A DNA stretch of 25,564 bases from a virus (lineage: Duplodnaviria > Heunggongvirae > Uroviricota > Caudoviricetes). The notes below the pieces were generated by a model. The model did not search any database. It was not told the origin of the DNA and worked only from the letters and a program-made list of their open reading frames with translations. The stretch is from positions 1 through 25,564 of IMG/VR virus record IMGVR_UViG_2917860307_000003; one strand, given 5' to 3'. The translations under genes were made by a program, and so were the position numbers. Below are positions 2,399-25,564 of the stretch, piece by piece; position 1 is the stretch's first letter, and each line of letters opens with the position of its first letter.

Positions 2399-2436
2399 AA
2401 AAGTCTTACCATAAGATTTTTGTATATGGATGCATT

Positions 2437-2811: not shown

Positions 2812-2829
2812 GATATCAAGTGATTTATG

Positions 2830-2853
2830 GCCTCGCTTTTAGCGGGGCTTTTT
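2830..2853 (+). terminator. Intrinsic terminator downstream of the 124-aa accessory ORF
   Basis: 7-bp stem GCCTCGC/GCGGGGC (one G-U pair in RNA), 5-nt loop TTTTA, then TTTTT. Confidence 0.55.
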
Positions 2854-3002
2854 CACATCTGAATTTCACTGCGCACCCCACGCGCACATTATCACCCGAG
2901 CCTTTCAGAAAGTTGAGCCTGAGAACTGCCGTATATGGTGGCGACCATCTCGGGGCGGCTTTTCTGTGGGGCAGGCTCAATTTTCTAAAAGGTAATAGCG
3001 CT

Positions 3003-3500
3003 ATGAAAGCAATCACGCTTTTTAATACACCGATCCGTGTTGATGAATCAGGAATGATCTGCCTCACTGACATGTGGAAAGCTAGTGGTAAAAGTGAATC
3101 TGAATCGCCGTACCACTACCTGCGAAACAAGCAGACCAAAGAGTTCTTGGCTGAGCTGGAGAAAAACCACGAATCTGTGGTTTTTACGGAACGCGGTGTG
3201 CACGGTGGAACTTATGGAGGAAAGTTCGTTGCTTATGATTACGCAGCATGGCTAAACCCTGAATTTAAATATGCAGCCTATAAAGTCCTCGATGACTACT
3301 TCACCGGAGAGCTTCAGCATCGCAGCAGCTTAAGTGCACAGCTCAATATGAAGTGTCACGAGTTTGATCAGAAGAAAGATATGGCGAGCTTTTGCGGGCA
3401 GGGACTGGCTGCTTGGCGTTACACCAAGCCAGTTCTGATGGCTGAAATTAGTAACCTGGCTACCCAGCTGCAGCTCACAATACCCGGGCTGCATTCATAA
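3003..3500 (+). CDS. KilA-N (APSES-type) DNA-binding domain protein
   Basis: 165-aa ORF from ATG 3003; N-terminal pattern (ICLTDMWKASGKS…YLRNKQTKEFLAEL…GGTYGGKFVAYDYAAWLNPEF) matches the KilA-N domain as I recall it; the track's upstream extension from 2820 looks non-coding. Confidence 0.55.
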   Translation: MKAITLFNTPIRVDESGMICLTDMWKASGKSESESPYHYLRNKQTKEFLAELEKNHESVVFTERGVHGGTYGGKFVAYDYAAWLNPEFKYAAYKVLDDYFTGELQHRSSLSAQLNMKCHEFDQKKDMASFCGQGLAAWRYTKPVLMAEISNLATQLQLTIPGLHS

Positions 3501-4633: not shown

Positions 4634-4743
4634 GCAGTACGGGGGCAATGCTCGGACTCGACCCCAGCAGCCGCCAGCGTCTGATTGGCCTGGCGGGGCA
4701 GAAGAAAGCCACTAACCCGTTTCTGAAAATTATCGAATCATGA
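4630..4743 (+). CDS. Either the C-terminal segment of the small terminase (reached by -1 frameshift at 4609-4615) or an independent 37-aa ORF translationally coupled at both ends
   Basis: ATG 4630 overlaps the terS stop as ATGA and has AGGAG 6 nt upstream; my translation is [37 protein letters not shown]; its stop overlaps the terL start as ATGA. Confidence 0.5.
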
Positions 4744-6416
4744 GCCGGAAATCTTACCCCAACGTAAATGCTGCAAATCAGTATGCCCGGGATGTCGTGC
4801 GCGGAAAGATTGTTGCCTGCCAGTTTGTGATTCAGGCCTGCCAGCGCCATCTTGATGACCTGATGGCGGAAAAAAGTAAGTCGTTTCGTTACCGCTTCGA
4901 CAAGGACCTGGCTGAACGGGCCGCCAAATTTATTCAGCTGTTGCCGCACACCAAGGGTGAGTGGGCATTTAAACGGATGCCCATCACGCTGGAGCCGTGG
5001 CAGCTATTTGTGATCTGCTGTGCGTTTGGCTGGGTCAATAAAGGCACCCGGTTGCGCCGCTTCCGGGAGGTGTATACCGAAATTCCCCGTAAGAACGGTA
5101 AATCGGCAATCTCTGCCGGTGTTGCCCTGTATTGTTTTGCCTGTGATAACGAGTTTGGCGCGGAAGTGTATTCCGGTGCCACGACAGAGAAACAGGCGTG
5201 GGAAGTCTTTCGTCCGGCGCGACTGATGTGTAAACGCACACCAATGCTGACGGAAGCGTTCGGGATTGAGGTTAACGCCTCAAACATGAACCGTCCGGAG
5301 GATGGCGCGCGGTTTGAACCGCTGATCGGTAACCCCGGTGATGGTTCATCACCCCACTGTGCGGTGGTGGATGAATATCACGAGCACGCCACCGATGCGC
5401 TTTACACCACGATGCTTACCGGGATGGGGGCGCGACGTCAGCCACTGATGTGGGCCATCACCACTGCCGGGTACAACATTGAGGGGCCGTGCTACGACAA
5501 GCGGCGGGAAGTCATCGAGATGCTCAACGGCTCGGTGCCCAACGATGAACTGTTCGGGATCATCTATACCGTTGATGAAGGTGACGACTGGACCGACCCG
5601 CAGGTGCTGGAAAAAGCCAATCCAAATATTGGCGTGTCGGTTTATCGCGAATTTTTGTTAAGTCAGCAGCAGCGTGCGAAAAATAACGCCCGTCTGGCAA
5701 ACGTCTTTAAAACAAAACACCTCAATATCTGGGTGTCGGCGCGTTCGGCGTATTTCAACCTGGTGAGCTGGCAGAGCTGTGAGGATAAATCACTGACTCT
5801 TGAGCAATTCGAGGGGCAGCCGTGCATTCTGGCCTTTGACCTGGCGCGTAAACTGGATATGAACAGCATGGCGCGACTTTATACCCGCGAGATTGACGGT
5901 AAAACGCATTACTACAGTGTGGCCCCGCGTTTCTGGGTACCGTATGACACGGTGTACAGCGTCGAGAAAAATGAAGATCGCCGGACAGCCGAACGCTTTC
6001 AGAAATGGGTGGAAATGGGCGTCCTGACCGTTACCGATGGTGCTGAGGTGGATTATCGCTACATCCTCGAAGAGGCCAAAGCGGCGAACAAAATCAGCCC
6101 GGTCAGCGAGTCACCCATCGACCCCTTCGGGGCGACCGGGCTCTCACATGACCTTGCTGATGAAGACCTGAACCCCATCACTATCATTCAGAACTACACC
6201 AACATGTCCGACCCGATGAAAGAGCTGGAAGCGGCAATTGAATCGGGGCGCTTTCATCATGATGGCAATCCCATCATGACCTGGTGTATCGGCAACGTGG
6301 TCGGCAAAACCATTCCGGGTAACGATGATGTGGTGAAACCCGTCAAAGAGCAGGCGGAAAACAAAATCGATGGTGCAGTTGCGCTGATTATGGCGGTTGG
6401 CAGAGCCATGCTGTAA
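4740..6416 (+). CDS. Terminase large subunit
   Basis: 558-aa ORF directly downstream of the small terminase; size and position typical of an HK97-family large terminase. Confidence 0.85.
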
Positions 6417-6668: not shown

Positions 6669-7909
6669 TGTTCTTTTCGGGATTATTTCAACGAAAAAGT
6701 GACGCGCCGGTGACCACGCCAGCAGAGCTGGCGGATGCTATCGGGCTGTCATACGACACCTATACCGGAAAGCAGATCAGCAGCCAGCGGGCCATGCGAC
6801 TGACGGCGGTTTTTTCCTGCGTCAGGGTGCTGGCAGAGTCGGTCGGGATGTTGCCCTGCAATCTGTATCACCTGAACGGCAGCCTGAAACAGAGAGCCAC
6901 CGGCGAACGTCTGCATAAGCTGATCTCCACGCATCCCAATGGATATATGACGCCGCAGGAGTTCTGGGAGCTGGTGGTCACCTGTCTGTGCCTGAGGGGA
7001 AACTTTTACGCCTACAAAGTGAAAGCATTTGGCGAAGTGGCTGAACTGCTGCCCGTCGATCCTGGCTGTGTGGTACCGAAGCTTAACAGTAGCTGGGAGC
7101 CGGTCTATCAGGTCACATTCCCGGACGGCTCCACGGATGTGCTGACCCAGGAGGATATCTGGCATGTGCGCACGCTGACGCTGGACGGCCTGGTGGGACT
7201 GAATCCCATCGCCTATGCCCGCGAGGCAATATCGCTGGCGGCAGCGACCGAAGAGCACGGGGCCAGACTGTTCAGCAATGGCGCGGTGACGTCGGGTGTG
7301 TTGCGTACAGAGCAGACGCTGTCGGATCAGGCTTATGAGCGCCTGAAGAAAGATTTTGAGGAGCGTCACACCGGGCTTGGCAATGCTCACCGCCCGATGA
7401 TCCTTGAGATGGGGCTGGACTGGAAGTCGATGGCGTTGAACGCAGAGGACAGCCAGTTCCTGGAAACCCGCAAGTTTCAGCTTGAAGAAATCTGTCGTCT
7501 GTTCCGTGTGCCATTGCACATGGTGCAGAACACCGATCGCGCCACCTTCAACAATATCGAAGAGCTGGGGCTCGGATTTATCAACTATTCACTGGTGCCG
7601 TATCTGACCCGCATCGAACAGCGGATCAACACCGGACTGGTACGAAAAAGTAAGCAGGGCGTTTATTACGCCAAATTTAACGCCGGGGCGTTACTGCGCG
7701 GGGATATGAAGTCCCGTTTTGAAGCCTACGCCACCGGGATCAACTGGGGAATTTACTCTCCCAATGACTGCCGCGACCTGGAAGATATGAATCCGCGTCC
7801 CGGTGGTGATGTCTATCTCACACCGATGAACATGACCACGAAACCCTCCGATGGCAGTAAAGCCGGTAAGCAGAAGGATAACGCCAATGCAGACGAAACA
7901 ACGTCTTGA
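6668..7909 (+). CDS. Portal protein (HK97 family)
   Basis: 413-aa ORF between terminase and prohead protease; GTG start with GGAGG 8 nt upstream. Confidence 0.8.
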   Translation: MFFSGLFQRKSDAPVTTPAELADAIGLSYDTYTGKQISSQRAMRLTAVFSCVRVLAESVGMLPCNLYHLNGSLKQRATGERLHKLISTHPNGYMTPQEFWELVVTCLCLRGNFYAYKVKAFGEVAELLPVDPGCVVPKLNSSWEPVYQVTFPDGSTDVLTQEDIWHVRTLTLDGLVGLNPIAYAREAISLAAATEEHGARLFSNGAVTSGVLRTEQTLSDQAYERLKKDFEERHTGLGNAHRPMILEMGLDWKSMALNAEDSQFLETRKFQLEEICRLFRVPLHMVQNTDRATFNNIEELGLGFINYSLVPYLTRIEQRINTGLVRKSKQGVYYAKFNAGALLRGDMKSRFEAYATGINWGIYSPNDCRDLEDMNPRPGGDVYLTPMNMTTKPSDGSKAGKQKDNANADETTS

Positions 7910-8537
7910 TGTACCGCTGAGTCTGAAATCTGTCAGTGACTCCGGTGAGTTTGAAGGGTATGGCTCCGTCTTTGGTGTAAAAGACAGCCACGATGATGTG
8001 GTGATGTCCGGGGCATTTGCTGCTTCCCTGCGGGCGTGGAGTGACAGAAAAGCGTTGCCTGCGCTGCTCTGGCAGCACCGCATGGATGAGCCCATCGGTG
8101 TTTACACCGAAATGAAGGAAGACGATGTCGGGCTTTACGTCAGGGGGCGGTTGCTCATTGATGATGATCCCCTGGCAAAACGCGCACATGCACACATGAA
8201 GGCCGGTTCGTTAACCGGCCTTTCTATTGGGTACGTCCTGAAGGACTGGGAATATGACCGGACGAAAGAAGCCTTTCTGCTGAAAGAAATCGACCTCTGG
8301 GAAGTCAGTCTGGTGACGTTTCCGTCTAACGACGAGGCGCGGATTAGCGACGTCAAGAACGCGCTGGCCCGCGGGGAAATCCCCGAACAGAAAAAAATCG
8401 AAAGAGTCCTGCGTGATGTCGGACTCTCCCGTACCCAGGCCAAAGCATTCATGGCCGGGGGCTATGGCGCACTGTCCCTGCGCGACGCTGAGGATGTGGG
8501 CTCTGCACTGAATGCACTGAAAAATCTGAACTTCTAA
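7887..8537 (+). CDS. Prohead maturation protease (HK97 gp4-like)
   Basis: ATG 7887 with AAGGA RBS; motif region SGEFEGYGSVFGVKDSHDDVVMSGAF typical of HK97-type prohead proteases; the track's upstream start at 7851 is less likely. Confidence 0.75.
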   Translation: MQTKQRLDVPLSLKSVSDSGEFEGYGSVFGVKDSHDDVVMSGAFAASLRAWSDRKALPALLWQHRMDEPIGVYTEMKEDDVGLYVRGRLLIDDDPLAKRAHAHMKAGSLTGLSIGYVLKDWEYDRTKEAFLLKEIDLWEVSLVTFPSNDEARISDVKNALARGEIPEQKKIERVLRDVGLSRTQAKAFMAGGYGALSLRDAEDVGSALNALKNLNF

Positions 8538-8551
8538 TCAGGAGAAATACG

Positions 8552-9757
8552 ATGGCGGTTGATATTAAAGATGTCGAACAGGTCGCGCAGGAGCTGCAGC
8601 AGAAGTTTGACGACTTCAAAGCAAAGAACGACAAGCGCGTGGATGCGATTGAGCAGGAAAAAGGCAAACTTGCCGGGCAGGTGGAAACCCTGAACGGGAA
8701 ACTCAGCGAGCTGGAAAATCTCAAAAGCGATATTGAAAAAGAGCTGCTTGAGCTGAAACGTCCGGCAGGTGGTACGCAAAATAAACTGGCCACCGAGCAT
8801 AAAGAAGCGTTTGTGGGCTTCCTGCGTAAAGGCCGTGAAGATGGTCTGCGCGATCTGGAGCGCAAGGCATTACAGGTGGGCACCGATGAAGACGGCGGCT
8901 ATGCCGTGCCGGAAGCACTGGATCGCAACATTCTCACCCTGCTGAAAGATGAAGTGGTGATGCGCCAGGAAGCCACGGTGATCACCGTTGGCGGTTCCGA
9001 CTACAAAAAACTGGTGAATCTGGGCGGCACGGCTTCCGGATGGGTGGGCGAGACTGACGCGCGCTCCCAGACTGCCACCTCAAAACTGGGACTGATTGAA
9101 CCTTTCATGGGGGAAATCTACGGTAACCCGCAGGCCACCCAGAAAATGCTGGATGATGCTTTCTTCAACGTGGAGGCCTGGATCAACAGCGAGCTGGCAA
9201 CCGAATTTGCCGAACAGGAAGAAATTGCCTTTACCTCCGGCGATGGTACCAAGAAGCCAAAAGGGTTCCTGGCGTATGAATCCACCGATGAAACCGATAA
9301 GGTCCGGGCGTTCGGCAAACTTCAGCATATTGTATCCGGCGAAGCGACGACGGTGACCGCAGACGCCATTATCAAACTGATTTACACGCTGCGTAAGGCA
9401 CACCGCACTGGCGCGAAGTTCATGATGAACAACAACAGCCTGTTTGCCATCCGTCTGCTGAAAGACAGCGAGGGTAACTATCTGTGGCGTCCGGGGCTGG
9501 AGCTGGGGCAGCCGTCCTCTCTGGCGGGTTACGGTATCGCTGAAAACGAACAGATGCCGGATATCGCCGCTGATGCGAAAGCCATTGCATTTGGCAACTT
9601 CAAACGGGGTTACACCATCGTTGACCGTATCGGCACCCGCATTCTGCGCGACCCGTACACCAATAAACCGTTTGTCGGTTTTTATACCACCAAGCGCACC
9701 GGCGGGATGCTGGTCGATTCGCAGGCCATCAAACTGCTGAAGATTGCAGCGGCGTAA
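8552..9757 (+). CDS. Major capsid protein (HK97 fold) with N-terminal coiled-coil delta/scaffold domain
   Basis: 401-aa ORF; first ~75 aa are charged coiled-coil; AGGAG RBS; follows the protease as in HK97. Confidence 0.85.
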   Translation: MAVDIKDVEQVAQELQQKFDDFKAKNDKRVDAIEQEKGKLAGQVETLNGKLSELENLKSDIEKELLELKRPAGGTQNKLATEHKEAFVGFLRKGREDGLRDLERKALQVGTDEDGGYAVPEALDRNILTLLKDEVVMRQEATVITVGGSDYKKLVNLGGTASGWVGETDARSQTATSKLGLIEPFMGEIYGNPQATQKMLDDAFFNVEAWINSELATEFAEQEEIAFTSGDGTKKPKGFLAYESTDETDKVRAFGKLQHIVSGEATTVTADAIIKLIYTLRKAHRTGAKFMMNNNSLFAIRLLKDSEGNYLWRPGLELGQPSSLAGYGIAENEQMPDIAADAKAIAFGNFKRGYTIVDRIGTRILRDPYTNKPFVGFYTTKRTGGMLVDSQAIKLLKIAAA

Positions 9758-11785: not shown

Positions 11786-11956
11786 ATGTTTGTCAAACCT
11801 GTTAAAGGGCGGTCAGTTCCTGACCCTGCCCGCGGCGACCTTTTGCCCGCCGAAGGGCGAAATGTTGACGAGAACAACTACTGGCTGCGCCGTGAAGCAG
11901 CGGGTGATATCCGGCGCGTGAATAAAAAGGTGAATACCGATGACGATAAGCTTTAA
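11786..11956 (+). CDS. Small conserved Mu-like tail-module protein (56 aa)
   Basis: My translation is MFVKPVKGRSVPDPARGDLLPAEGRNVDENNYWLRREAAGDIRRVNKKVNTDDDKL; overlaps the sheath start; below the track's size cutoff. Confidence 0.5.
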   Translation: MFVKPVKGRSVPDPARGDLLPAEGRNVDENNYWLRREAAGDIRRVNKKVNTDDDKL

Positions 11957-13436
11957 CACCATTCCGTCGAATACGCTGGTTCCGTTGTTTTATGCGGAAA
12001 TGGATAACTCGGCGGCGAATACTGCACAGGACAGTGGAGCATCGCTGCTGATTGGTCATGCCAATAACGGTGCAGAGATTGTTGCCAACAGTCTGGTACT
12101 GATGCCGTCGGCAGACTATGCACGCCAGATTTGTGGTGCGGGAAGTCAGCTGGCGCGTATGGTCGAGGCTTATCGCCAGACTGACCCGTTTGGCGAGCTG
12201 TATGTGATTGCCGTTCCTGAATCCACAGGCGCGGCGGCAACGGTTACGCTGACGGTGACCGGGGAAGCAACCGAAAGCGGCACGGTGAATGTCTATGTGG
12301 GACGTACCCGCGTGCAGGCTCCGGTGACCAACGGCGATAACGTCACGACGATTGCCAGCAGTATCAAAGATGCCATCAATGCCGTTCCGACTCTGCCGTT
12401 TACAGCTTCATCTTCGGCTGGTGTTGTCACGCTGACCGCGCGTCATAAGGGGCTTTGCGGGAATGAAATTCCTGTCAGCCTCAATTACTACGGCTTCGGT
12501 GGGGGCGAAGTGCTGCCAGCGGGCGTACAGATTGCCGTGGCGACGGGGACCGCCGGAACGGGCGCTCCGGTTCTCACCGGCGCGGTGGCTGCAATGGCGG
12601 ATGAGCCGTTTGATTATATCGGTCTGCCGTTCAACGACACGGCCTCCGTTAACACGCTGGTGACCGAGATGAACGATACCAGCGGTCGCTGGAGCTATGC
12701 GCGTCAGCTGTATGGTCATGTGTATACGGCAAAGATCGGCACGCTGTCAGAACTGGTGACCGCAGGTGACCAGTTTAACCAGCAGCACATTACCCTGGCG
12801 GGGTACGAAAAAGACACCCAGACGCCTGCCGACGAGCTGGCGGCAAGCCGTACCGCCCGCGCAGCGGTGTTTATCCGCAACGATCCGGCACGTCCCACGC
12901 AGACCGGTGAGCTGGTGGGTATGCTGCCTGCGCCGAAGGGGAAACGGTTCACGATGACCGAACAACAGACCCTGCTGTCTCATGGCGTGGCAACGGCGTA
13001 TGTCGAAAGCGGGGTACTGCGCATTCAGCGTGATGTCACCACGTACAGGAAAAACGCTTACGGGGTTGCGGATAACAGCTACCTCGACAGCGAGACGCTG
13101 CATACCAGCGCGTATGTACTGCGCAAACTGAAATCCGTCATTACCAGTAAGTACGGGCGTCACAAGCTTGCCAGTGACGGTACCCGCTTTGGTCCCGGTC
13201 AGGCGATTGTCACCCCGGCGGTGATCAAAGGGGAACTGCTGGCAACCTACCGTCAGCTCGAGCGTGCGGGGATCGTGGAAAACTACGAACTGTTCAAGCA
13301 GTACCTGGTTGTGGAGCGTGATGCCAGCGATCAGAACCGCCTGAACACGCTGTTCCCGCCTGACTATGTTAACCAGTTGCGTGTCTTTGCCGTGGTTAAC
13401 CAGTTCCGTCTTCAGTATTCAGAGGAGTCTGCATAA
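11940..13436 (+). CDS. Contractile tail sheath protein (Mu gpL-like)
   Basis: 498-aa ORF directly followed by the tube gene with TAATG overlap. Confidence 0.85.
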   Translation: MTISFNTIPSNTLVPLFYAEMDNSAANTAQDSGASLLIGHANNGAEIVANSLVLMPSADYARQICGAGSQLARMVEAYRQTDPFGELYVIAVPESTGAAATVTLTVTGEATESGTVNVYVGRTRVQAPVTNGDNVTTIASSIKDAINAVPTLPFTASSSAGVVTLTARHKGLCGNEIPVSLNYYGFGGGEVLPAGVQIAVATGTAGTGAPVLTGAVAAMADEPFDYIGLPFNDTASVNTLVTEMNDTSGRWSYARQLYGHVYTAKIGTLSELVTAGDQFNQQHITLAGYEKDTQTPADELAASRTARAAVFIRNDPARPTQTGELVGMLPAPKGKRFTMTEQQTLLSHGVATAYVESGVLRIQRDVTTYRKNAYGVADNSYLDSETLHTSAYVLRKLKSVITSKYGRHKLASDGTRFGPGQAIVTPAVIKGELLATYRQLERAGIVENYELFKQYLVVERDASDQNRLNTLFPPDYVNQLRVFAVVNQFRLQYSEESA

Positions 13437-14061: not shown

Positions 14062-14210
14062 CGGCTGAATACCTCACTGATCGCTTCTTTGACTGCGCCA
14101 GTTACTGGCGCATTAATCCTTTCGAATTGCTGAATATGCCGATCAGTGAAATTCCCTTACTGGTCAGTCAGGCAAACAGGATAGAGCAGGAGAAACGCAC
14201 ACATGGCTGA
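13792..14210 (+). CDS. Tail assembly chaperone, long product made by programmed -1 frameshift at T-TTT-TTC (14043-14049)
   Basis: Canonical X-XXY-YYZ heptamer 12 nt before the frame-0 stop; the -1 frame stays open to 14210, overlapping the tape measure start. Confidence 0.65.
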
Positions 14211-16035
14211 ATTTGAGCTTAAGGCGTTGATCACCGGTGTCGACAGGCTTTCTCCCGCGCTGTCGAAAATGCAAAAGAAAATCCGGGGATTTAAACGCCA
14301 GGCGGAAGAAGCGTCACAGGGTGGGCTGGCGCTTGGTGGCGGACTGGCAGCGGGTCTGACGCTTTCCCTGAAATCTTATGCCGATCAGGAAAACGCCGCC
14401 ACCGGGCTGAAAGTCGCCATGATGGATGCGAACGGCGAGGTTGGAAAGAGCTTTCAGGACATCAATAAACTGGCTATTGGCCTGGGTAACCAGCTACCCG
14501 GTACAACGGCTGATTTCCAGAACATGATGCAGATGCTGGTGCGTCAGGGGATCCCGGCAGAAAACATTCTGGGTGGTGTGGGTAAAGCGACAGCTTATCT
14601 TGCGGTACAACTGAAAAAAACACCGGAAGCGGCTGCCGAGTTTGCAGCAAAGATGCAGGATGCTACCGGAACGGCCTCAGAAGACATGATGGGGCTGTTC
14701 GACACAATTCAGAAGGCGTTTTATCTGGGCGTTGACGACACCAACATGCTGTCCTTCTTCACTAAAACCAGCTCTGTTCTGAAGATGGTGAATAAGGACG
14801 GTCTTCAGGCTGCACAGAGTCTTGCCCCCATCAGTGTCATGATGGATCAGATGGGGATGAACGGGGAGTCGGCAGGTAATGCCCTGCGAAAAGTTATCCA
14901 GTCCGGATTAAGCGTTAAGAAAATCAGGGACGTCAATAAAATCATGGCCCGCCAGAAACTCGGGGTACAGCTCGATTTTACTGATGGCAAAGGGAGTTTT
15001 GGCGGTCTTGATAACATGTTCAGGCAACTGGCAAAGCTGCGAAAACTGACCGACGTTAAGCGAACCGGTGTACTTAAGGCAATATTTGGTGATGATGCCG
15101 AAACCCTTCAGGTGGTCAATGCGCTGATCGATAAAGGAAAAGATGGCTACGATCAGATCCAGCAGAAGATGAATAAACAGGCCAGCCTGAATAAACGTGT
15201 TCAGGCACAGCTTGGTACGCTGTCCAACCTGTGGGAGGCAATGACAGGGACCGCAACTAACGGCCTTGCGGCTATTGGCGGCGCATTTTCTGGTGACGCT
15301 AAAAATATCACGCAATGGCTGGGGGAGTTGGGGGAGAAATTCACGAAGTTTGCGGATGAAAATCCCCGGGTTATTCGCGGTGTCGTCGGGCTTGCTGCCG
15401 GTCTTGCGATTCTGAAACTGGGATTGATGGGCGTTGGCGGTGCCATCAGTATTGTCAGCAGGATCATGTCGATGACGCCGATTGGCATGATTGCGACGGC
15501 GATAGCCCTGGCTGCAGGATTAATTATCACTAACTGGGATGTTGTCGGACCTTATTTTAAGAAACTCTGGGAAACCATTGGTCCTTATTTTGAAGCTGGC
15601 TGGGAACTCCTTAAGAAAGTTTTTGCCTGGTCGCCGCTGGGGATGGTGATCAATAACTGGGGGCCGGTTGTTAAGTGGTTTCAGGATATGTGGGACAAGC
15701 TGAAGCCAATTATTGAGTGGTTTACCGACAGTTCCGGTGACACAGTCGATGCCATTAACTCTGCGCAGTGGGGCGCGGGTGCTTATGATGCTTATGGGAC
15801 GGGAATACCGGCGCGGGGATACATACCTTATCCGGCGGTGGATCCGGCTCAGTCAAACAACGCCTCCGATGCCACAGGCCCGAATCCCTTCATGATTAAC
15901 AAAGCTTCTGCGCCAAAAGTTGATGGTGAGATCAAGGTATCTTTTGTGAATTCGCCTCCGGGTATGCGGGTTACGGAAACACGTTCCAGTAGCATTGATA
16001 TTAATCACGATGTTGGGTACACCAGATTTAGGTAA
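14203..16035 (+). CDS. Tail tape measure protein
   Basis: 610-aa ORF with Ala/Gly-rich helical and hydrophobic segments, downstream of the frameshifted chaperone. Confidence 0.85.
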   Translation: MAEFELKALITGVDRLSPALSKMQKKIRGFKRQAEEASQGGLALGGGLAAGLTLSLKSYADQENAATGLKVAMMDANGEVGKSFQDINKLAIGLGNQLPGTTADFQNMMQMLVRQGIPAENILGGVGKATAYLAVQLKKTPEAAAEFAAKMQDATGTASEDMMGLFDTIQKAFYLGVDDTNMLSFFTKTSSVLKMVNKDGLQAAQSLAPISVMMDQMGMNGESAGNALRKVIQSGLSVKKIRDVNKIMARQKLGVQLDFTDGKGSFGGLDNMFRQLAKLRKLTDVKRTGVLKAIFGDDAETLQVVNALIDKGKDGYDQIQQKMNKQASLNKRVQAQLGTLSNLWEAMTGTATNGLAAIGGAFSGDAKNITQWLGELGEKFTKFADENPRVIRGVVGLAAGLAILKLGLMGVGGAISIVSRIMSMTPIGMIATAIALAAGLIITNWDVVGPYFKKLWETIGPYFEAGWELLKKVFAWSPLGMVINNWGPVVKWFQDMWDKLKPIIEWFTDSSGDTVDAINSAQWGAGAYDAYGTGIPARGYIPYPAVDPAQSNNASDATGPNPFMINKASAPKVDGEIKVSFVNSPPGMRVTETRSSSIDINHDVGYTRFR

Positions 16036-16042
16036 AGACGAA

Positions 16043-16064
16043 CAGGGAGGGCCGCCCCTCCCTG
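16043..16064. terminator. Hairpin between the convergent tape measure gene and minus-strand moron; likely terminator for the moron
   Basis: 9-bp stem CAGGGAGGG/CCCTCCCTG with 4-nt loop, 3 nt past the moron stop; U-rich run on the minus-strand transcript (UUCGUCUUUA). Confidence 0.5.
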
Positions 16065-16067
16065 AAC

Positions 16068-16514
16068 TTACTGTGCGAACACGCAATTTCGGCCTGATGG
16101 GGAGCCGACAATTCTGGACATTTTTTCGCAAATAACAGCTACCTGTTCTCCTTTTTTAAGAGCAGCAGCTGTTGATTTTTCAGAGTCTTGCATCTCCATT
16201 CTTGCTGGCATGAATTCATTTTCAGTTCTGAATTTAATAATTATAGAGTCAGTAAAGTCCTTATCAATGGATTGTACGATACCTCTAACGGCGATTAATT
16301 TACCTTTTAACTGTTCATCGGTAGCGACTTCATTTTCTTCATACTCTTTAAACAGCTGTCGAGCAGTAGTGTTGTAGATTTCTTTTTGCGGTGCCGCAGC
16401 TTCCGTATCGGATGAGTATGAAGAATTAGAGCCTTTATCGTTATTGCCTGCAAAATATCCAATAATCACCAACCCGATGAAAATATATAAAATCCATTTT
16501 AATAATTTCTTCAT
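16068..16514 (-). CDS. Moron: membrane-anchored protein with an OB-fold-like (tRNA_anti-like) C-terminal domain; function unknown, possibly superinfection exclusion
   Basis: 148-aa ORF on the opposite strand to the whole tail operon, in an AT-rich insert; N-terminal TM anchor (MKKLLKWILYIFIGLVIIGYFAG); C-terminal pattern (NEVATDEQLKGKLIAVRGIVQSIDKD…KKGEQVAVICEKM) resembles that family as I recall it. Confidence 0.6.
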   Translation of the reverse strand: MKKLLKWILYIFIGLVIIGYFAGNNDKGSNSSYSSDTEAAAPQKEIYNTTARQLFKEYEENEVATDEQLKGKLIAVRGIVQSIDKDFTDSIIIKFRTENEFMPARMEMQDSEKSTAAALKKGEQVAVICEKMSRIVGSPSGRNCVFAQ

Positions 16515-16624
16515 GTTATCACCTTAATGCTAATAATTTATATGGTTACAAATGGTAATGGCTACCACTACAAATTATGGCATTACCAGTAAATATTACT
16601 ACTGATAATAAATATGGGACTTAT

Positions 16625-17953
16625 ATGACGTGGAAAGACAGACTTCAGGACGCGTCATTTCGCGGTGTGTCGTTTAAGGTTGAAGAAGAAAGTGCGGGAA
16701 CCGGCCGTCGTGTGGAAACACACGAATACCCGAACCGCGACAAACCCTATACCGAAGACCTGGGAAAAATCACTTTCCGCCCGTCCATCACGGCTTATGT
16801 GGTGGGCGATGACTGCTTTGACCAGCGCGATCGCCTGATTGACGCGCTGAATAAACCCGGTCCCGGCACGCTTGTCCATCCGACATACGGTGAGCTGAAA
16901 GTCTGTGTTGACGGGGAGGTTCGGGTCAGCACATCGAAGAGTGAAGGGCGTATTGTCCGCTTTGACCTGAAGTTTGTCGAAGCGGGAGAACTCTCTTACC
17001 CCACATCAGGTGCGGCGACGGCGCAGACGCTGATGTCATCCTGTTCTGCACTGGATGACTGCATCAGTGACAGTTTCAGTGGTTTCAGTATCGATGGCGT
17101 GGCAGATTTTGTGCAGAACGACGTCGTCGGTAATGCCGGCACAATGCTGGAGTATGTTTCTGATGCGATGAAAGTGGTGGATTCTGCCGTATCGGATGCC
17201 GCCAGGCTGTTGCAGGGGGATATCTCGGTACTTCTGCCGCCGCCATCGTCAGGCAAAAATTTCGTTGAGCAGGTGCAGAAAATGTGGCGTACCGGGAAAC
17301 GTCTTTATGGTAACGCCAGCGACCTGGTCACCATGATCAAAACGCTTTCCGGTGTCAGCCTCGGCAGCGATCTGCAACCGCGCGGCGTCTGGAAAACGGA
17401 CAGTAAAACCACCGCTACGGCGACGCAGCAGCGTAACGTGGTTGCCAGCACCCTTCGTACGACCGCAATCAGCGAAGCGGCGTATGCCGTCACCCGATTG
17501 CCTGCGCCAACAACTTCCGCGGTGATGCAGAATGCCGCAGTGGGGCAGGCAACAACAGCTGCGCAGAGCACCGGCTGGCCTTCCGTCACGCATCCGGCAC
17601 TGAACAATGCACCGGCGGTGAAAAACACGGTTGATCTGCCGACGTGGGAAGAACTGACTGACATTCGCGACACACTGAATACGGCAATTGATAAGGAGTT
17701 GTCCCGTACAACCAGTGATGCGCTGTTTCTGGCGCTGCGCCGGGTGAAAGCAGATCTGAATGCGGATATCAACACGCGCCTTGAACAGTCTGCACGGATC
17801 ATTCAGCGCACGCCGGATGAGGTTTTACCCGCGCTGGTGCTGGCGGCGACCTGGTTTGATAACGCGGCGCGTGACGCGGACATTATCCGGCGTAATGCCA
17901 TTACGCATCCCGGCTTTGTGCCGGTGATCCCTCTGAAGGTGCCAGTGCAATGA
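16625..17953 (+). CDS. DNA circulation protein (Mu gpN/gp43-like)
   Basis: Conserved N-terminal motif WKDRLQDASFRGVSFKV; I prefer ATG 16625 (GGGA upstream) over the track's 16577, which extends into the AT-rich moron promoter region. Confidence 0.75.
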   Translation: MTWKDRLQDASFRGVSFKVEEESAGTGRRVETHEYPNRDKPYTEDLGKITFRPSITAYVVGDDCFDQRDRLIDALNKPGPGTLVHPTYGELKVCVDGEVRVSTSKSEGRIVRFDLKFVEAGELSYPTSGAATAQTLMSSCSALDDCISDSFSGFSIDGVADFVQNDVVGNAGTMLEYVSDAMKVVDSAVSDAARLLQGDISVLLPPPSSGKNFVEQVQKMWRTGKRLYGNASDLVTMIKTLSGVSLGSDLQPRGVWKTDSKTTATATQQRNVVASTLRTTAISEAAYAVTRLPAPTTSAVMQNAAVGQATTAAQSTGWPSVTHPALNNAPAVKNTVDLPTWEELTDIRDTLNTAIDKELSRTTSDALFLALRRVKADLNADINTRLEQSARIIQRTPDEVLPALVLAATWFDNAARDADIIRRNAITHPGFVPVIPLKVPVQ

Positions 17954-19029
17954 ACGATAACGTCACGCTACGGGTAAATGGCCGGGAGTGGAATGGCTGG
18001 ACATCGGTGCGCATCGGTGCCGGTGTTGAACGACTGGCGCGGGATTTCAGTGTGGAGATCACCCGCCAGTGGCCGGGAGATGAGGGTATCACCACGCTTC
18101 AGCCGCGCATTAAAAACGGTTCAAAAGTGGAGGTGCTGATTGGTGATGAGCTGGTGATCACCGGCTGGGTGGAGGCGACGCCCGTTCGTTACGATGCCCG
18201 TTCGGTCAGCACCGGTATTGCCGGACGCAGTCTGACCGCTGACCTGATTGACTGTGCAGCCGAACCGACACAGTTTAACGGACGATCGCTGGTACAGATT
18301 GCGCAGGCGCTTGCTGCGCCTTTCGGCATTGAGGTGGTGAACAGCGGTGCGCCGTCGGGTGTTATTCCTGAAGTCCAGCCTGATCACGGTGAAACGGTGA
18401 TTGAGGTAATCAACAAAATACTCGGTCAGCAGCAGGCGCTGGCTTATGACGACCCGCACGGCAGGCTGGTGATTGGCGGTATTGGCTCAACGCGGGCACA
18501 TACCGCGCTGGTACTTGGGGAAAACATCCTTTCCTGTGATACGGAGAAGAGTATCCGGGAGCGGTTTTCAGTTTACCAGGTGGCGGGGCAGCGTGCCGGA
18601 AACGACGATGATTTCGGTGAGGCCACCACCACCGCGCTGCGGGCCCGCACAGAGGACGCATTTATTGCCCGTTACCGTCCGATGTATATCAGGCAGACAG
18701 GGCAGGCCACGGGGGCAGGCTGTATTGCGCGTGCTGACTTTGAAGCCCGACAACGGGCGGCGCGGACGGATGAAACCACCTATGTGGTGCAGGGCTGGCG
18801 ACAGGGTAACGGTACGCTGTGGCAGCCCAACCAGCGGGTGATTGTCTTCGATCCGGTCTGTGGTTTCGACAATACCGAACTGCTTGTCTCGGAAGTCACG
18901 TTTACTCAGGACCAGAACGGCACCCTGACGGAAATCCGTGTCGGCCCACCTGATGCTTATCTGCCTGAACCCGAAGCCCCCGGCGCGCGGAAAAAGAAAA
19001 AAGCCAGAGTACAGGAGGACCCGTTCTGA
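17950..19029 (+). CDS. Baseplate hub / tail protein (Mu gpP/gp44-like, P2 gpD family)
   Basis: 359-aa ORF with ATGA overlap to the upstream gene; gene order in a Mu-type baseplate cluster. Confidence 0.7.
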   Translation: MNDNVTLRVNGREWNGWTSVRIGAGVERLARDFSVEITRQWPGDEGITTLQPRIKNGSKVEVLIGDELVITGWVEATPVRYDARSVSTGIAGRSLTADLIDCAAEPTQFNGRSLVQIAQALAAPFGIEVVNSGAPSGVIPEVQPDHGETVIEVINKILGQQQALAYDDPHGRLVIGGIGSTRAHTALVLGENILSCDTEKSIRERFSVYQVAGQRAGNDDDFGEATTTALRARTEDAFIARYRPMYIRQTGQATGAGCIARADFEARQRAARTDETTYVVQGWRQGNGTLWQPNQRVIVFDPVCGFDNTELLVSEVTFTQDQNGTLTEIRVGPPDAYLPEPEAPGARKKKKARVQEDPF

Positions 19030-22396: not shown

Positions 22397-22998
22397 TGAA
22401 TCACGCGGTATTAAATAACGAACTTATTGCCGTGCAGGAAGGAAACATTATCGTTTACAACTATGACAGTGAGACGCGGGAATATATTTCTGCATCAACT
22501 GAATATCTTGCTGTGGGTGTCGGTATTCCGGCATATTCCTGTTTAGACGCTCCAGGTACACATAAGGCTGGTTATACAATTTGCCGTTCTGTGGATTTAA
22601 AATCATGGGAATATGTGTCAGACCATCGTGGTGAAATTGTCTATAGCACCGAAACAGGGGAATCAAAAGAAATCAAAACTCCGGGTGATTACCCTGAAAA
22701 TACAACCACTATCGCCCCGTCAACGCCATACGATAAATGGGATGGTGAGAAATGGGTGACAGATACTGAGGAGCTACATCACGTCGCAGTAGAAACGGCA
22801 GAAACACAGCGTCAGTCAATGATTGAAACTGCAATGGCTTCCATTAGTCTGATTCAACTGAAATTGCAGGCCGGGCGGAAGCTGATGCAGGCAGAGACCA
22901 CCCGACTTAACACTGTGCTGGATTACATTGACGCGGTGACGGCAACAGATACCAGCACAGCGCCGGATGTTATCTGGCCTGAACTGCCGGAGGCGTAG
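22396..22998 (+). CDS. Tail fibre assembly protein (Tfa/U, expressed orientation)
   Basis: 200-aa ORF overlapping the fibre stop; C-terminus (…TSTAPDVIWPELPEA) matches the C-terminus of the convergent paralogue. Confidence 0.75.
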   Translation: MNHAVLNNELIAVQEGNIIVYNYDSETREYISASTEYLAVGVGIPAYSCLDAPGTHKAGYTICRSVDLKSWEYVSDHRGEIVYSTETGESKEIKTPGDYPENTTTIAPSTPYDKWDGEKWVTDTEELHHVAVETAETQRQSMIETAMASISLIQLKLQAGRKLMQAETTRLNTVLDYIDAVTATDTSTAPDVIWPELPEA

Positions 22999-23410
22999 GC
23001 CATTCAATATCTGGAGCACTGGAAATATCGACCACTTCCAGTGCGTCCAGATAATCCAGCCACAAATTATATTGCGCCAGTTCCTCACCTTTCAGACGAC
23101 CAATAGCTGCTTTACCAGGCCATTGCCTGCTGTTCATGTGTTCGTTGGCAGTATCTATGCGCTTCTGACGCTCGTATTCTGCCATTTTTATCAGTTCTTC
23201 AGGTTCCAGTGGCGGAATATTACCCCATACGGGATAACCATCATCATCCGCAATCCTCATTTTTCCCTCTGGTGGCTTCTGAAATGCAGAAAAAGTTTCT
23301 TCATCAACCTCCACGCCTTTTTCTGGCCATAACCCCACGGATTCATAATGTAATTTCAAAGCCAACGGATAGAAGGCGTTAGTTTTTGCATCATAAATAT
23401 ATTTGTTCAT
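22970..23410 (-). CDS. Alternative tail fibre assembly protein (Tfa'/U', silent orientation)
   Basis: 146-aa ORF convergent with tfa; shares the C-terminal motif (…SSAPDIEWPTPPA). Confidence 0.7.
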   Translation of the reverse strand: MNKYIYDAKTNAFYPLALKLHYESVGLWPEKGVEVDEETFSAFQKPPEGKMRIADDDGYPVWGNIPPLEPEELIKMAEYERQKRIDTANEHMNSRQWPGKAAIGRLKGEELAQYNLWLDYLDALEVVDISSAPDIEWPTPPAVQAR

Positions 23411-23412
23411 TT

Positions 23413-23777
23413 TTATTTCCCTATTGCAATCCAGTTAGCGCCAGCACCCGTTCCGCCAGTACGAGAACTCATTAAATAAAATGCAAGTAGTCCGCCTCCT
23501 GCCGGAGTTGTCGCAAAGGCAGGGCAATCTGTCGCACCGTTAACTGCACTGTCAAAAGACGTGGCAATACGATAACCAGATGTAAAAGGAATCGGGAAGT
23601 TTACAGTTGTTGGATAGCCGATTGGCCCTGCAATACTGACGCCAAACTGTATGATTGTACCATCCGGAAATTTCATCCAGCCTGGCCCCGACGTGAAGCT
23701 AGCCATATCCGGGATCTGATTTACCCCGGTTCCAACCTCCCGTTTTGCCGCTTCTCCCAAACCAACGTTTATGAAAA
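23413..23777 (-). CDS. Alternative tail fibre C-terminal cassette (Sv'), without its own start; fused to the constant N-terminus after inversion
   Basis: Minus-strand frame reads through the right recombination site encoding …GLGE…, in register with the same GLGE encoded at the left site in the fibre gene. Confidence 0.65.
23751..23777. repeat. Right inversion crossover site (pix/gix-like)
   Basis: CTTCTCCCAAACCAACGTTTATGAAAA, inverted relative to the site at 21905-21930. Confidence 0.75.
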
Positions 23778-23831
23778 TACAGAAATAACGAGCAAATGGC
23801 ATCATTCCTGCTTTTGTCAGGGAGATCTACC

Positions 23832-24386
23832 ATGCTTATTGGCTATGTACGTGTGTCAACAAATGACCAGAACACAGATCTACAACGTAATGCGCTGAAC
23901 TGTGCAGGATGCGAGCTGATTTTTGAAGACAAGATAAGCGGTACAAAGTCCGAAAGGCCGGGACTGAAAAAACTGCTCAGGACATTATCGGCAGGTGACA
24001 CTCTGGTTGTCTGGAAGCTGGATCGGCTGGGGCGTAGTATGCGGCATCTGGTCATTCTGGTTGAGGAGTTGCGCGAACGTGGCGTTAATTTTCGCAGCCT
24101 GACGGATGCTATTGATACCAGCACACCGATGGGGCGTTTTTTCTTTCATGTGATGGGTGCCCTGGCTGAAATGGAACGAGAACTGATTGTTGAACGAACA
24201 AAAGCTGGACTGGAAGCTGCTCGCGCACAGGGACGAATTGGGGGACGTCGTCCCAAACTTACACCAGAACAATGGGCGCAGGCCGGGCGATTAATTGCAT
24301 CAGGCGTTCCTCGCCAGAAGGTGGCGATCATCTATGATGTTGGTATATCGACACTGTATAAGAAGTTTCCGGTCGGAGATAAATGA
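23832..24386 (+). CDS. pin: Serine DNA invertase (Pin/Gin/Hin family)
   Basis: 184-aa ORF from ATG 23832; N-terminus MLIGYVRVSTNDQNTDLQRNAL with catalytic-serine context and C-terminal HTH; close to E. coli e14 Pin as I recall it. Confidence 0.9.
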   Translation: MLIGYVRVSTNDQNTDLQRNALNCAGCELIFEDKISGTKSERPGLKKLLRTLSAGDTLVVWKLDRLGRSMRHLVILVEELRERGVNFRSLTDAIDTSTPMGRFFFHVMGALAEMERELIVERTKAGLEAARAQGRIGGRRPKLTPEQWAQAGRLIASGVPRQKVAIIYDVGISTLYKKFPVGDK

Positions 24387-24676: not shown

Positions 24677-25564
24677 TCAGGAAAATTTACGGGAGCCTAT
24701 GACGCAGAGGATGACACCGAATGTAATCAGTATCATCAGCGGACTAATGGCTTCATGCAGCAGTGTGGCTGACAGACCCAATCCAAAGAAAGGCTGTAAT
24801 AGCTGTAGCTGACCGACAGCTGCAATCCCGCCAGTAGCCAGTCCCTTATACCAGAATATAAAGCCAATCAGCATGCTGAATAGCGAGACGTAGGCCAGAG
24901 CGAACCAGGCCGATGTAGAAATCCCGCCAAAAGTATCGGGTATTGTCATCAATGAGGCCAACACCATAAAAGGCAGGGAAATAATCAGTGCCCAGCTAAT
25001 GACTTGCCATCCCCCAAGCACTCGGGTCAGTTTTGCGCCTTCTGCATACCCAAGTCCACAAATAACCACAGCGGCAAGCATAAGAAGATCGCCTGTCAGG
25101 GAGACTGTATCACTTTGCATGAAGGCAAACCCTATCACCAGTAGGCTACCCAGAACAGAAAAAATCCAGAACGCTATTGTTGGTCGTTCACCACCTCGTA
25201 GTACCCCAAAAATCGCTGTACTAAGCGGCAGTAGCCCTAAATAAACGATCGAGTGGGCCGCATCAATATGCTTTAGCGCCATCGCTGTAAGTAAGGGAAA
25301 GCCAACAATGACGCCCACAGACACAATAATTAGCGGTGCGAACTGAGCGGCTTGTGGGCGTTTTTCACGAAAGTAATAAACAAGAATCACCGCCAGCGTA
25401 CCGGCAATGGATGCCCGGAGGAAAGTCAGAAAAAACGGATCCATATCAAGCACGGCAACACGTGTGGCCGGTAGGGAACCACTAAAAATGATGACGCCCA
25501 ACAGACCGTTGACCCAACCAGATACTGAACTTGCCGCCATTTTATCTGCCACTGAATTCTCCAT
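24677..25564 (-). CDS. EamA/DMT-family membrane transporter (probably host-encoded); start codon at the window edge
   Basis: 295-aa polytopic membrane protein with about 10 hydrophobic segments; the ATG is the last three bases of the window; convergent with the prophage. Confidence 0.6.
   Translation of the reverse strand: MENSVADKMAASSVSGWVNGLLGVIIFSGSLPATRVAVLDMDPFFLTFLRASIAGTLAVILVYYFREKRPQAAQFAPLIIVSVGVIVGFPLLTAMALKHIDAAHSIVYLGLLPLSTAIFGVLRGGERPTIAFWIFSVLGSLLVIGFAFMQSDTVSLTGDLLMLAAVVICGLGYAEGAKLTRVLGGWQVISWALIISLPFMVLASLMTIPDTFGGISTSAWFALAYVSLFSMLIGFIFWYKGLATGGIAAVGQLQLLQPFFGLGLSATLLHEAISPLMILITFGVILCVIGSRKFS

What the first reader, a model, noticed from the sequence alone, without database searches (positions are those of the whole stretch)
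16036..16624. Opposite-strand AT-rich moron inside the tail operon encoding a membrane-anchored OB-fold-like protein
A 148-aa gene on the minus strand sits between the tape measure and DNA circulation genes, the only antisense gene in a ~20-kb co-directional structural operon. Its composition is clearly more AT-rich than its neighbours. It has its own upstream AT-rich region (16515-16624) and a terminator hairpin 3 nt past its stop (16043-16064). The product has an N-terminal signal-anchor and a C-terminal domain resembling tRNA_anti-like OB-fold proteins. Independently expressed prophage morons of this kind often give lysogen phenotypes such as superinfection exclusion or envelope modification; this function is a hypothesis.
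Basis: partly seen in the sequence, partly recalled or inferred. Interest (0 to 1): 0.7.

Follow-up and report, generated by a model that had tools for sequence, protein, structure and literature searches.

The report
Accessory envelope-protein gene inside prophage tail operon
A small, AT-rich, backwards-facing gene wedged between two tail genes of an SfV-like E. coli prophage is an optional add-on ("moron") encoding a membrane-anchored, periplasm-facing OB-fold protein. It most likely protects the lysogen at the cell envelope, probably against other phages, but its function has never been tested.

Summary
The 148-aa ORF at 16068-16514 (-) has 37.6% GC against 53% for the window. It has a strong Shine-Dalgarno sequence and a terminator hairpin 3 nt past its stop. 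It lies between the tape-measure gene and the Mu-N-like DNA circulation gene of an SfV/SfII/SfI-like prophage.

It is optional cargo. The tail cluster occurs in about 1,100 of 5,426 complete E. coli genomes, but this insert occurs in only 79. Phages SfV, SfII and SfI have an empty site. At least four unrelated low-GC genes, three of them with envelope-targeting N-termini, occupy the same junction in other prophages, so the junction is a moron hot spot.

Relatives in other phages sit in one of two places: antisense inside tail operons, or directly downstream of the CI-type repressor. Both placements are the kind expected for genes expressed in lysogens.

The function (probably a block to phage entry) is inferred, not shown. 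This is a new member of a known kind and of modest interest.

The parts
16068..16514 (-). Moron CDS, 148 aa: membrane-anchored OB-fold protein (PF12869 / PHROG 8545)
   Evidence: ORF and translation. Pfam E = 1.1e-18. PHROG 8545 E = 7e-49. Between alleles pN is 0.14-0.25 while pS is 0.67-0.88, indicating purifying selection.
16446..16496 (-). Codons for the single transmembrane helix / signal anchor (residues 7-23, WILYIFIGLVIIGYFAG), preceded by MKKLLK (+3 charge)
   Evidence: Kyte-Doolittle maximum 2.18 over 17 aa. AF2 helix at residues 2-21. There is no lipobox cysteine and no small residue at -3 (sequence).
16080..16382 (-). Codons for the OB-fold domain (residues 45-145) with the invariant cysteine pair C128/C143
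16043..16064 (-). Intrinsic terminator hairpin of the moron, followed by a U-rich tract on the minus strand only
   Evidence: -20.4 kcal/mol, z -3.8. On the + strand the hairpin is followed by AACUUACUGUG, so it is not a terminator for the late operon. A hairpin is also present after the stop of the diverged HCP8S3 allele.
16519..16524 (-). Shine-Dalgarno AGGTGA, 4 nt upstream of the ATG
   Evidence: Read from the sequence. Identical in the diverged E. coli allele.
16574..16582 (-). Candidate extended -10 promoter element TGcCATAAT (inferred)
   Evidence: Read from the sequence. The aligned position is TGcTATAAA in E. coli HCP8S3 and TGcGATAAA in Buttiauxella, while the surrounding sequence has diverged. 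Not detected by the two-hexamer scan.
16036..16620 (.). The variable insert as a whole (about 585 bp) at the TMP/gpN junction; replaced by about 20-45 bp in SfV/SfII/SfI
   Evidence: Alignments and sequences. No flanking direct or inverted repeats.
14203..16035 (+). Tail tape measure protein gene (left flank). Its last ~60 nt diverge from the SfII sequence, so the exchange boundary lies inside the 3' end
   Evidence: Pfam PF10145; alignment.
16625..17953 (+). DNA circulation (Mu gpN-like) gene (right flank). Its ribosome-binding region (GGGACTTAT) is supplied by the insert
   Evidence: Pfam PF07157; comparison with the empty site.

Best explanation
This is a moron: a self-contained, horizontally acquired transcription unit placed at a permissive hot spot between the tape-measure and DNA-circulation genes of an SfV-like prophage.

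It faces against the late operon. It carries its own ribosome-binding site, a probable extended -10 promoter and a one-way terminator. It can therefore be transcribed in the lysogen without switching on tail genes, while antiterminated late transcription reads through it during lytic growth.

Its product is a bitopic inner-membrane protein. The N-terminus is in the cytoplasm. One transmembrane helix and a ~20-residue flexible linker follow. A ~100-residue OB-fold domain lies in the periplasm and is probably stabilised by a C128-C143 disulfide.

The mechanism I consider most likely is as follows. The tethered periplasmic OB domain binds a component exposed in the periplasm during infection, either the incoming phage's DNA-delivery conduit (tape measure or tail tip) or a host factor that the conduit needs. 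This blocks genome entry, i.e. superinfection exclusion in the manner of HK97 gp15, P22 SieA or TP-J34 Ltp.

Shown: the gene's anatomy, its optional nature, family membership, the predicted fold, purifying selection, and its recurrent placement in lysogeny-type positions.
Inferred: promoter activity, topology, the disulfide, expression in lysogens, the ligand, and the exclusion phenotype.
For: Accessory status.
- The insert is in 79 genomes, while the tail cluster is in about 1,100 of 5,426 E. coli genomes.
- SfV, SfII and SfI have an empty site.
- The same junction carries other low-GC cargo: a 170-aa signal-peptide protein, a 225-aa lipoprotein, a 176-aa signal-anchor protein and a bPH_1 protein.

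Foreign origin and own signals: GC 0.376 against 0.53; terminator; Shine-Dalgarno and conserved extended -10.

Real, constrained protein: pN 0.14-0.25 against saturated pS; 18 invariant residues across 35 homologues.

Periplasmic orientation.
- +3 charge before the transmembrane helix.
- Homologues P0064 and P0067 replace the anchor with a lipobox; others add an N-terminal zinc ribbon before the helix.
- The cysteine pair is invariant.

Lysogeny-type placement of relatives.
- Of 43 IMG/VR contigs with a relative, 20 have it antisense in a tail operon. Nineteen of these are at the TMP/gpN junction in three alleles down to 78% identity, and one lies between the tail chaperone and the TMP.
- 14 of the 43 have it immediately downstream of, and co-oriented with, a CI-like or C-like repressor, i.e. 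the lambda rexAB position.
- The same holds for Burkholderia phage Carl1 (repressor operon ending in a terminator) and contig L016 (S24 repressor).
- Antisense copies also occur in a Klebsiella phage baseplate cluster and in a P2-like tail cluster.

Precedent: HK97 gp15 is a tail-operon moron next to the TMP gene. [quoted passage not shown]
Against: - No experiment on any PF12869 member from a phage was found. The origin of the PHROG label is unknown, so it is a lead, not a test.
- No PADLOC or NCBIfam model matches.
- Close homologues also occur outside recognisable prophages, in Pantoea and next to rplS in Pectobacterium. The domain may therefore have a general envelope role.
- About 20 E. 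coli genomes carry a 143-bp deletion that removes the promoter, start codon and transmembrane helix. One copy is truncated at an IS1 element. The gene is dispensable and sometimes decays.
- The only experimentally studied relative, C. difficile TcdC, has no known link to phage exclusion (PMC3575817; bioRxiv 10.1101/872283).
- The promoter is not a consensus sigma-70 site.
Confidence: 0.5

Rival explanations
1. Lysogenic-conversion envelope or fitness factor unrelated to phages. The periplasmic OB domain would bind a host envelope component (porin, peptidoglycan, lipid or oligosaccharide) and alter permeability or stress and antimicrobial-peptide tolerance. This is how the periplasmic bacterial OB-fold (BOF) proteins YdeI/YgiW are thought to work (from my own knowledge of that family).
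Against: No Pfam BOF hit. The strong association with repressor operons and tail-operon hot spots fits any lysogen-expressed function, but the only functional label attached to the family is superinfection exclusion. No virulence or stress literature was found.
Confidence: 0.25
2. Periplasmic nucleic-acid binder. The OB domain would bind DNA in the periplasm, either phage DNA escaping the conduit or single-stranded DNA arriving by conjugation or transformation, and so exclude incoming DNA directly.
Against: The domain is not basic (pI 5.6, net charge -1; family median +1). No nuclease or other DNA-processing domain is fused in 68 longer relatives. AbiP and PdpSau are described with cytoplasmic C-terminal domains (PMC10127798), whereas this protein's domain is predicted outside the cytoplasm. 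Injected DNA is normally shielded by the tail conduit (established knowledge).
Confidence: 0.1
3. A structural or assembly component of the tail, for example a chaperone for the tape measure or baseplate, needed for virion production.
For: Its position between the tape-measure and baseplate-proximal genes.
Against: It is on the opposite strand to the late operon. It is absent from the functional phages SfV, SfII and SfI and from more than 90% of E. coli prophages with this tail. Unrelated genes replace it at the same site. It is found in repressor operons elsewhere. It is membrane-anchored with a periplasmic domain.
Confidence: 0.02
4. A decaying remnant with no current function in this prophage.
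For: 5'-deleted and IS1-truncated copies exist in other genomes. The promoter is non-consensus.
Against: The copy in the window is intact, with Shine-Dalgarno, terminator and full-length ORF. 54 E. coli genomes cover at least 80% of the insert, and 74 records match at 99% identity or more. There is strong purifying selection across genera. The extended -10 is conserved.
Confidence: 0.05

Closest known systems
HK97 gp15 (the first-described moron; superinfection exclusion; PMC3594210)
   Same: A small moron inserted in the tail operon next to the tape-measure gene. It has its own expression signals and deviant GC, and encodes an inner-membrane-anchored protein. It also has chromosomal non-phage homologues (YebO for gp15; Pantoea and Pectobacterium copies here). 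One relative (L060) sits exactly at the gp15 position, between the tail chaperone and the TMP.
   Different: No sequence relationship: tblastn against phage records found no HK97 hit and Pfam gave no YebO match. gp15 is described as a small inner-membrane protein (PMC3594210), with no OB-fold domain of this kind reported. The phenotype here is untested.
PDB 3F1Z / Pfam PF12869 tRNA_anti-like ('putative nucleic acid-binding lipoprotein')
   Different: Only 15% identity to 3F1Z. This protein has a signal anchor rather than a lipobox. Neither protein has a demonstrated function or ligand.
Clostridioides difficile TcdC (PaLoc)
   Same: An N-terminal membrane anchor plus a C-terminal OB fold that matches PF12869 by profile comparison (PMC3575817). 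The OB domain was shown experimentally to be outside the cytoplasm (bioRxiv 10.1101/872283), which is the same topology predicted here.
   Different: Gram-positive host. TcdC is predicted to have a coiled-coil region and to form a dimer (PMC3575817). It was proposed as a negative regulator of toxin genes. Direct sequence similarity to the window protein was not tested here.
P22 SieA, TP-J34 Ltp and lactococcal Sie2009 (characterised injection blockers)
   Same: Prophage-expressed, membrane- or lipid-anchored proteins acting at the inner membrane or periplasm on the incoming DNA-delivery machinery (PMC10883804 for SieA). Like many relatives of this gene, they are encoded in lysogeny-expressed positions. 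That Ltp targets the tape-measure protein is from my own knowledge.
   Different: No detectable sequence relationship: tblastn found no P22 or TP-J34 record and Pfam gave no Lipoprotein_Ltp hit. The folds differ. A BFVD structural match to a gut-phage protein named 'Host cell surface-exposed lipoprotein' is only a lead.
AbiP / PdpSau (membrane-anchored OB-fold abortive-infection proteins; PMC10127798)
   Same: An N-terminal transmembrane helix plus an OB-like domain. Both are prophage- or plasmid-encoded anti-phage proteins.
   Different: Their C-terminal domains are described as cytoplasmic, positively charged and nucleic-acid-binding. They act after DNA entry by abortive infection. Here the domain is predicted to be periplasmic and near neutral. 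No PADLOC Abi model matches.

Membership tests
Pfam PF12869 tRNA_anti-like | HMM score above the curated gathering threshold | tested here: met
   67.7 bits against a 23.5 cutoff, E = 1.1e-18, residues 2-130 on profile positions 5-131 of 146.
Pfam PF12869 tRNA_anti-like | OB-barrel fold like the family's solved structure 3F1Z | tested here: met
Pfam PF12869 tRNA_anti-like | N-terminal envelope anchor (lipoprotein signal or transmembrane helix) preceding the OB domain | tested here: met
   Transmembrane helix at residues 7-23. Homologues P0064 and P0067 have lipoboxes at the same place.
PHROG 8545 ('superinfection exclusion Sie-like') | Profile match over the full length | tested here: met
   E = 7.2e-49, residues 1-146 on profile positions 14-176 of 177.
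PHROG 8545 ('superinfection exclusion Sie-like') | Actual superinfection-exclusion activity of a member | not testable with these tools
   No paper on the family was found. The source of the label is unknown.
Moron (Juhala/Hendrix sense; PMC3594210) | Present in some genomes and absent from closely related ones at the same site | tested here: met
   79 genomes against about 1,100 E. coli genomes with the tail cluster. SfV, SfII and SfI have an empty site.
Moron (Juhala/Hendrix sense; PMC3594210) | Base composition different from the flanking phage genes | tested here: met
   GC 0.376 against 0.53.
Moron (Juhala/Hendrix sense; PMC3594210) | Own terminator | tested here: met
   Hairpin at 16064-16043 plus a U-tract, z -3.8.
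Moron (Juhala/Hendrix sense; PMC3594210) | Own promoter | tested here: inconclusive
   No two-hexamer sigma-70 site in 16515-16624. An extended -10, TGcCATAAT, is conserved in three alleles.
Moron (Juhala/Hendrix sense; PMC3594210) | Expression from the repressed prophage | not testable with these tools
   Only indirect support: relatives lie in CI-repressor operons.
Superinfection-exclusion (injection-blocking) proteins | Blocks genome entry without blocking adsorption | not testable with these tools
   Requires phage challenge and DNA-entry assays.
Superinfection-exclusion (injection-blocking) proteins | Located in the inner membrane or periplasm | tested here: inconclusive
   Prediction only: positive-inside rule, lipobox and zinc-ribbon variants, invariant cysteine pair.
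HK97 gp15 / YebO, P22 SieA, Ltp (PF07553) | Sequence homology to the characterised protein | tested here: not met
   tblastn against 50,697 phage records hit only Burkholderia, Bordetella and Klebsiella phages. Pfam lists only PF12869.
Known anti-phage defence systems (PADLOC-DB) | Match to any defence-protein model | tested here: not met
   0 families at E <= 1.

The most novel reading that the evidence does not exclude
PF12869-type membrane-tethered, extracytoplasmic OB-fold proteins may form a large, uncharacterised class of prophage lysogeny-module proteins. The class spans about 7,700 clusters at 50% identity and, more distantly, C. difficile TcdC. On this reading the proteins block phage genome delivery from the periplasmic side by an OB-domain interaction with the incoming tail conduit. 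The TMP/gpN junction of SfV-like prophages would then be a previously undescribed hot spot that swaps mostly envelope-targeted cargo genes of unknown function, which may be exclusion proteins.
Probability: 0.3. Interest if true: 0.6.

Novelty: new member of a known kind. Interest (0 to 1): 0.4.

Why it matters
If the product is an entry blocker, it adds a new fold (a tethered periplasmic OB domain) to the small set of understood superinfection-exclusion mechanisms. It would give a function to a Pfam family with thousands of members and suggest a fresh way to look at TcdC.

It would also be a practical predictor of phage resistance in the roughly 1-2% of E. coli genomes that carry it, which is relevant to phage therapy and to Shigella and E. 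coli serotype-converting phages.

The hot spot offers a natural experiment. Near-identical prophages differ only in this cargo: empty, OB-fold, lipoprotein, signal-peptide protein or bPH protein. The effect of each gene could therefore be compared in almost isogenic backgrounds.

If instead it is an ordinary fitness moron, the finding is routine.

Tried and rejected
Searches that gave nothing.
- NCBIfam and PADLOC: no hits.
- Sequence search of the PDB: only chance matches to spike-protein constructs.
- Literature searches for PF12869, tRNA_anti-like, 'OB-fold putative lipoprotein', 'Sie-like' and phrog_8545: no experimental study of the phage or enterobacterial family.
- Hot-spot literature search: only P2/P4 hot spots, none for SfV-like tails.
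- Foldseek against afdb50 was unavailable.

Leads checked and dropped.
- A BFVD match to a protein named like Ltp suggested an OB-Ltp fusion. None of 120 profile hits or 68 longer relatives carries an Ltp domain. The common partner is an N-terminal zinc ribbon.
- Transposon-type insertion: rejected, because there are no flanking direct or inverted repeats.
- The strong promoter-like site inside the CDS (16267-16240, 11 of 12 matches) is probably an artefact of AT-rich sequence. The region as a whole yields no more sites than shuffles do.
- Structural tail role: rejected on presence/absence data.
- Cytoplasmic AbiP-like nucleic-acid binding: rejected on predicted topology.
- The ORF-finder start of gpN at 16577: rejected in favour of 16625.

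Full report
WHAT IS THERE

The window is an SfV/SfII/SfI-like prophage of E. coli or Shigella, with an HK97-type head and a Mu-type contractile tail.
- The stretch 14000-18500 matches 1,106 of 5,426 complete E. coli genomes at 95-99% identity. It also matches phages SfV, SfII, SfI, SKA5 and vB_EcoM-689R6.
- Pfam confirms large terminase (4740-6416), capsid (8552-9757), sheath (11940-13436), tape measure (14203-16035), DNA circulation/gpN (16625-17953) and gpP (17950-19029), all on the + strand.
- Between the tape-measure gene and gpN lies a 148-aa ORF on the minus strand, 16068-16514.
- Its GC content is 37.6%, against 53.0% for the window.
- Three nt beyond its stop is a 9-bp GC-rich hairpin (16064-16043) followed by UUCGUCUUUA. 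It folds at -20.4 kcal/mol with z = -3.8.
- On the + strand the same hairpin has no U-tract, so it should stop the moron transcript but not late transcription.
- An AGGTGA Shine-Dalgarno sits 4 nt before the ATG.
- The consensus scan found no two-hexamer promoter in the 110-bp upstream region.
- An extended -10 element, TGcCATAAT (16582-16574, minus strand), is conserved as TGcTATAAA and TGcGATAAA in two diverged alleles whose surrounding sequence differs.
- The true gpN start is 16625, not the ORF-finder's 16577.

IT IS OPTIONAL CARGO AT A HOT SPOT

- The 605-bp insert is found in only 79 E. coli genomes. Of the matching records, 74 are at 99% identity or more. 54 genomes cover at least 80% of the insert. 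Five records carry a ~74%-identical allele.
- The flanking tail genes are in about 1,100 genomes.
- In SfV, SfII and SfI the tape-measure stop is followed by only ~20-45 bp, including a terminator-like hairpin, before gpN.
- I sampled 60 records evenly from the 1,103 that match the junction. About 26 have the empty site. About 17 carry a ~620-bp insert like that of phage SKA5. The rest carry other inserts.
- The alternative cargo genes are a 170-aa signal-peptide protein (PHROG 8976), a 225-aa lipoprotein (PHROG 1353), a 176-aa signal-anchor protein (PHROG 5485) and a 125-aa bPH_1 protein (PF08000).
- All four are low in GC (0.31-0.42), all are on the sense strand, and none has a known function.
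- The insert has no flanking repeats. The last ~60 nt of the tape-measure gene differ from SfII. Acquisition therefore looks like recombination between related phages, not transposition.
- A ~70%-identical allele occupies the same site in another E. coli prophage and in a Buttiauxella prophage.
- Some copies are decaying. E. coli 042 and about 20 other genomes carry a 143-bp deletion that removes the promoter, Shine-Dalgarno, start codon and membrane anchor. One copy is truncated at an adjacent IS1 element.

THE PROTEIN

- It matches Pfam PF12869 (tRNA_anti-like) at E = 1.1e-18 and PHROG 8545, labelled 'superinfection exclusion Sie-like', at E = 7e-49.
- It matches nothing in NCBIfam, PADLOC or PDB sequences.
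- An AlphaFold2 model built from 35 homologues has mean pLDDT 87.6. It shows a helix at residues 2-21, a disordered linker at 25-35 and an OB barrel at 45-145.
- The topology is predicted as N-in, C-out, on four grounds:
  - three lysines precede the 17-residue hydrophobic segment;
  - some homologues replace the anchor with a lipobox;
  - others add a zinc ribbon upstream of the transmembrane helix;
  - two cysteines, C128 and C143, are invariant, as expected for a periplasmic disulfide.
- The domain is near neutral: net charge -1 here and a family median of +1.
- Between alleles and genera, synonymous sites are saturated (pS 0.67-0.88) while pN is 0.14-0.25. The protein is therefore under purifying selection.
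- The wider family is large: 7,689 representatives of 50%-identity clusters at E <= 1e-3.

WHERE RELATIVES SIT

Of 43 IMG/VR viral contigs encoding a relative:
- 19 have it antisense at the TMP/gpN junction of SfV-like prophages;
- one has it antisense between the tail chaperone and the tape measure, which is the HK97 gp15 position;
- 14 have it immediately downstream of, and co-oriented with, a CI-like or C-like repressor, opposite cro/cII-like genes, which is the lambda rexAB position;
- four have it at a contig end;
- five are unresolved.

- the immunity-repressor operon of Burkholderia phage Carl1, which ends in a terminator;
- directly after an S24 repressor in contig L016;
- antisense in the baseplate cluster of Klebsiella phage ST405-OXA48phi1.2;
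- antisense between gpU and gpD of a P2-like prophage, in a lipoprotein version;
- at the end of a Serratia prophage, after the tail fibres;
- outside recognisable prophages in Pantoea and Pectobacterium.

The two recurrent placements, inside the repressor operon or as a self-contained antisense unit within late genes, are alternative ways to obtain expression in a lysogen without turning on lytic genes.

MECHANISM

The step from 'lysogen-expressed, periplasm-facing, membrane-tethered binding domain' to 'superinfection exclusion by blocking genome entry' is inference. It rests on three things:
- the PHROG label, whose source I could not trace;
- the gene's positions in other phages;
- precedents. 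HK97 gp15 is a tail-operon moron whose inner-membrane product blocks entry in a way that depends on the incoming tail (PMC3594210). [quoted passage not shown]

I put about 0.5 on this reading. I put about 0.25 on an envelope or fitness role unrelated to phages, and about 0.1 on direct periplasmic nucleic-acid binding. Structural and non-functional readings get little weight.

A cytoplasmic AbiP/PdpSau-like mechanism (PMC10127798) does not fit the predicted topology.

The only studied relative is C. difficile TcdC. It is membrane-anchored, has an OB fold that hits PF12869 by profile comparison (PMC3575817), and has an experimentally extracellular C-terminus (bioRxiv 10.1101/872283). Its function is unresolved.

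VERDICT

Its own refutation test, universal conservation at this position, fails decisively.

The element is a typical moron and a new member of a known kind. Databases already name the gene. What is new is modest:
- the TMP/gpN junction as a cargo hot spot with at least five alternative genes;
- the dual placement of this family, in the repressor operon or antisense in the tail operon;
- a testable lead for the function of a large uncharacterised family.

Interest 0.4.

Noticed in passing
window 22970-24386: Two minus-strand tail-fibre genes, a gp53-like C-terminal domain at 23413-23805 and a tail-fibre assembly protein at 22970-23410, lie next to a + strand serine recombinase (Resolvase + HTH_7, 23796-24386). 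This looks like a Gin/Cin/Pin-type invertible host-range switch.
   Followed up: partly
window 24677-25564: A minus-strand EamA-family transporter gene runs to the window end. It is probably host DNA, which would put the prophage boundary at about 24.4-24.7 kb.
   Followed up: no
window 16240-16267 (-): A near-consensus sigma-70-like site (TTGATA-16-TATAAT, 11 of 12 matches) lies inside the moron coding sequence, in the same direction as the gene. It is likely a by-product of AT richness, but it could drive a shorter transcript.
   Followed up: no
L001 2552-2590 (SfII); L002 3140-3205 (SKA5); L013 ~7895-7925 (Buttiauxella): Prophages with an empty site or other cargo keep an intrinsic-terminator-like hairpin with a U-tract on the late-operon strand, immediately upstream of gpN. 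Late transcription must therefore read through it, presumably by antitermination. This may explain why terminator-bearing morons are tolerated here.
   Followed up: partly
L020 (E. coli 042) 1501-1962; L021 (EJN001) 2248-3311: Decayed alleles. One is a 143-bp deletion removing the promoter, Shine-Dalgarno, start codon and transmembrane codons. It is still annotated as a 128-aa 'OB-fold protein' from an internal start. The other is a copy, and a prophage, cut off at an IS1 element.
   Followed up: yes
L007 4833-5624 (+) (Bordetella phage vB_BaM-IFTN4): An unannotated 263-aa ORF with a signal peptide and a region resembling this OB-fold domain (27.7% identity by tblastn) lies downstream of the repressor gene. 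The GenBank record instead annotates an ORF on the opposite strand (4850-5326), which is probably a mis-call.
   Followed up: partly
L050 4410-5216 and the equivalent position in L051-L055: In Pantoea/Erwinia-type prophages the order CI repressor, then OB-fold gene, is followed by a conserved ~268-aa gene with no PHROG match. It could be a partner protein.
   Followed up: no
L011/L012 2682-3797 (-) (Serratia prophage); L014 9947-12352: Other tail-cluster morons were seen in passing. One is an antisense Acyl_transf_3 gene among tail-fibre genes, like the antisense acyltransferase neaT of PMC3573123. The other is an 801-aa GDSL-lipase gene between the tail tube and chaperone genes of a P2-like prophage.
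   Followed up: no
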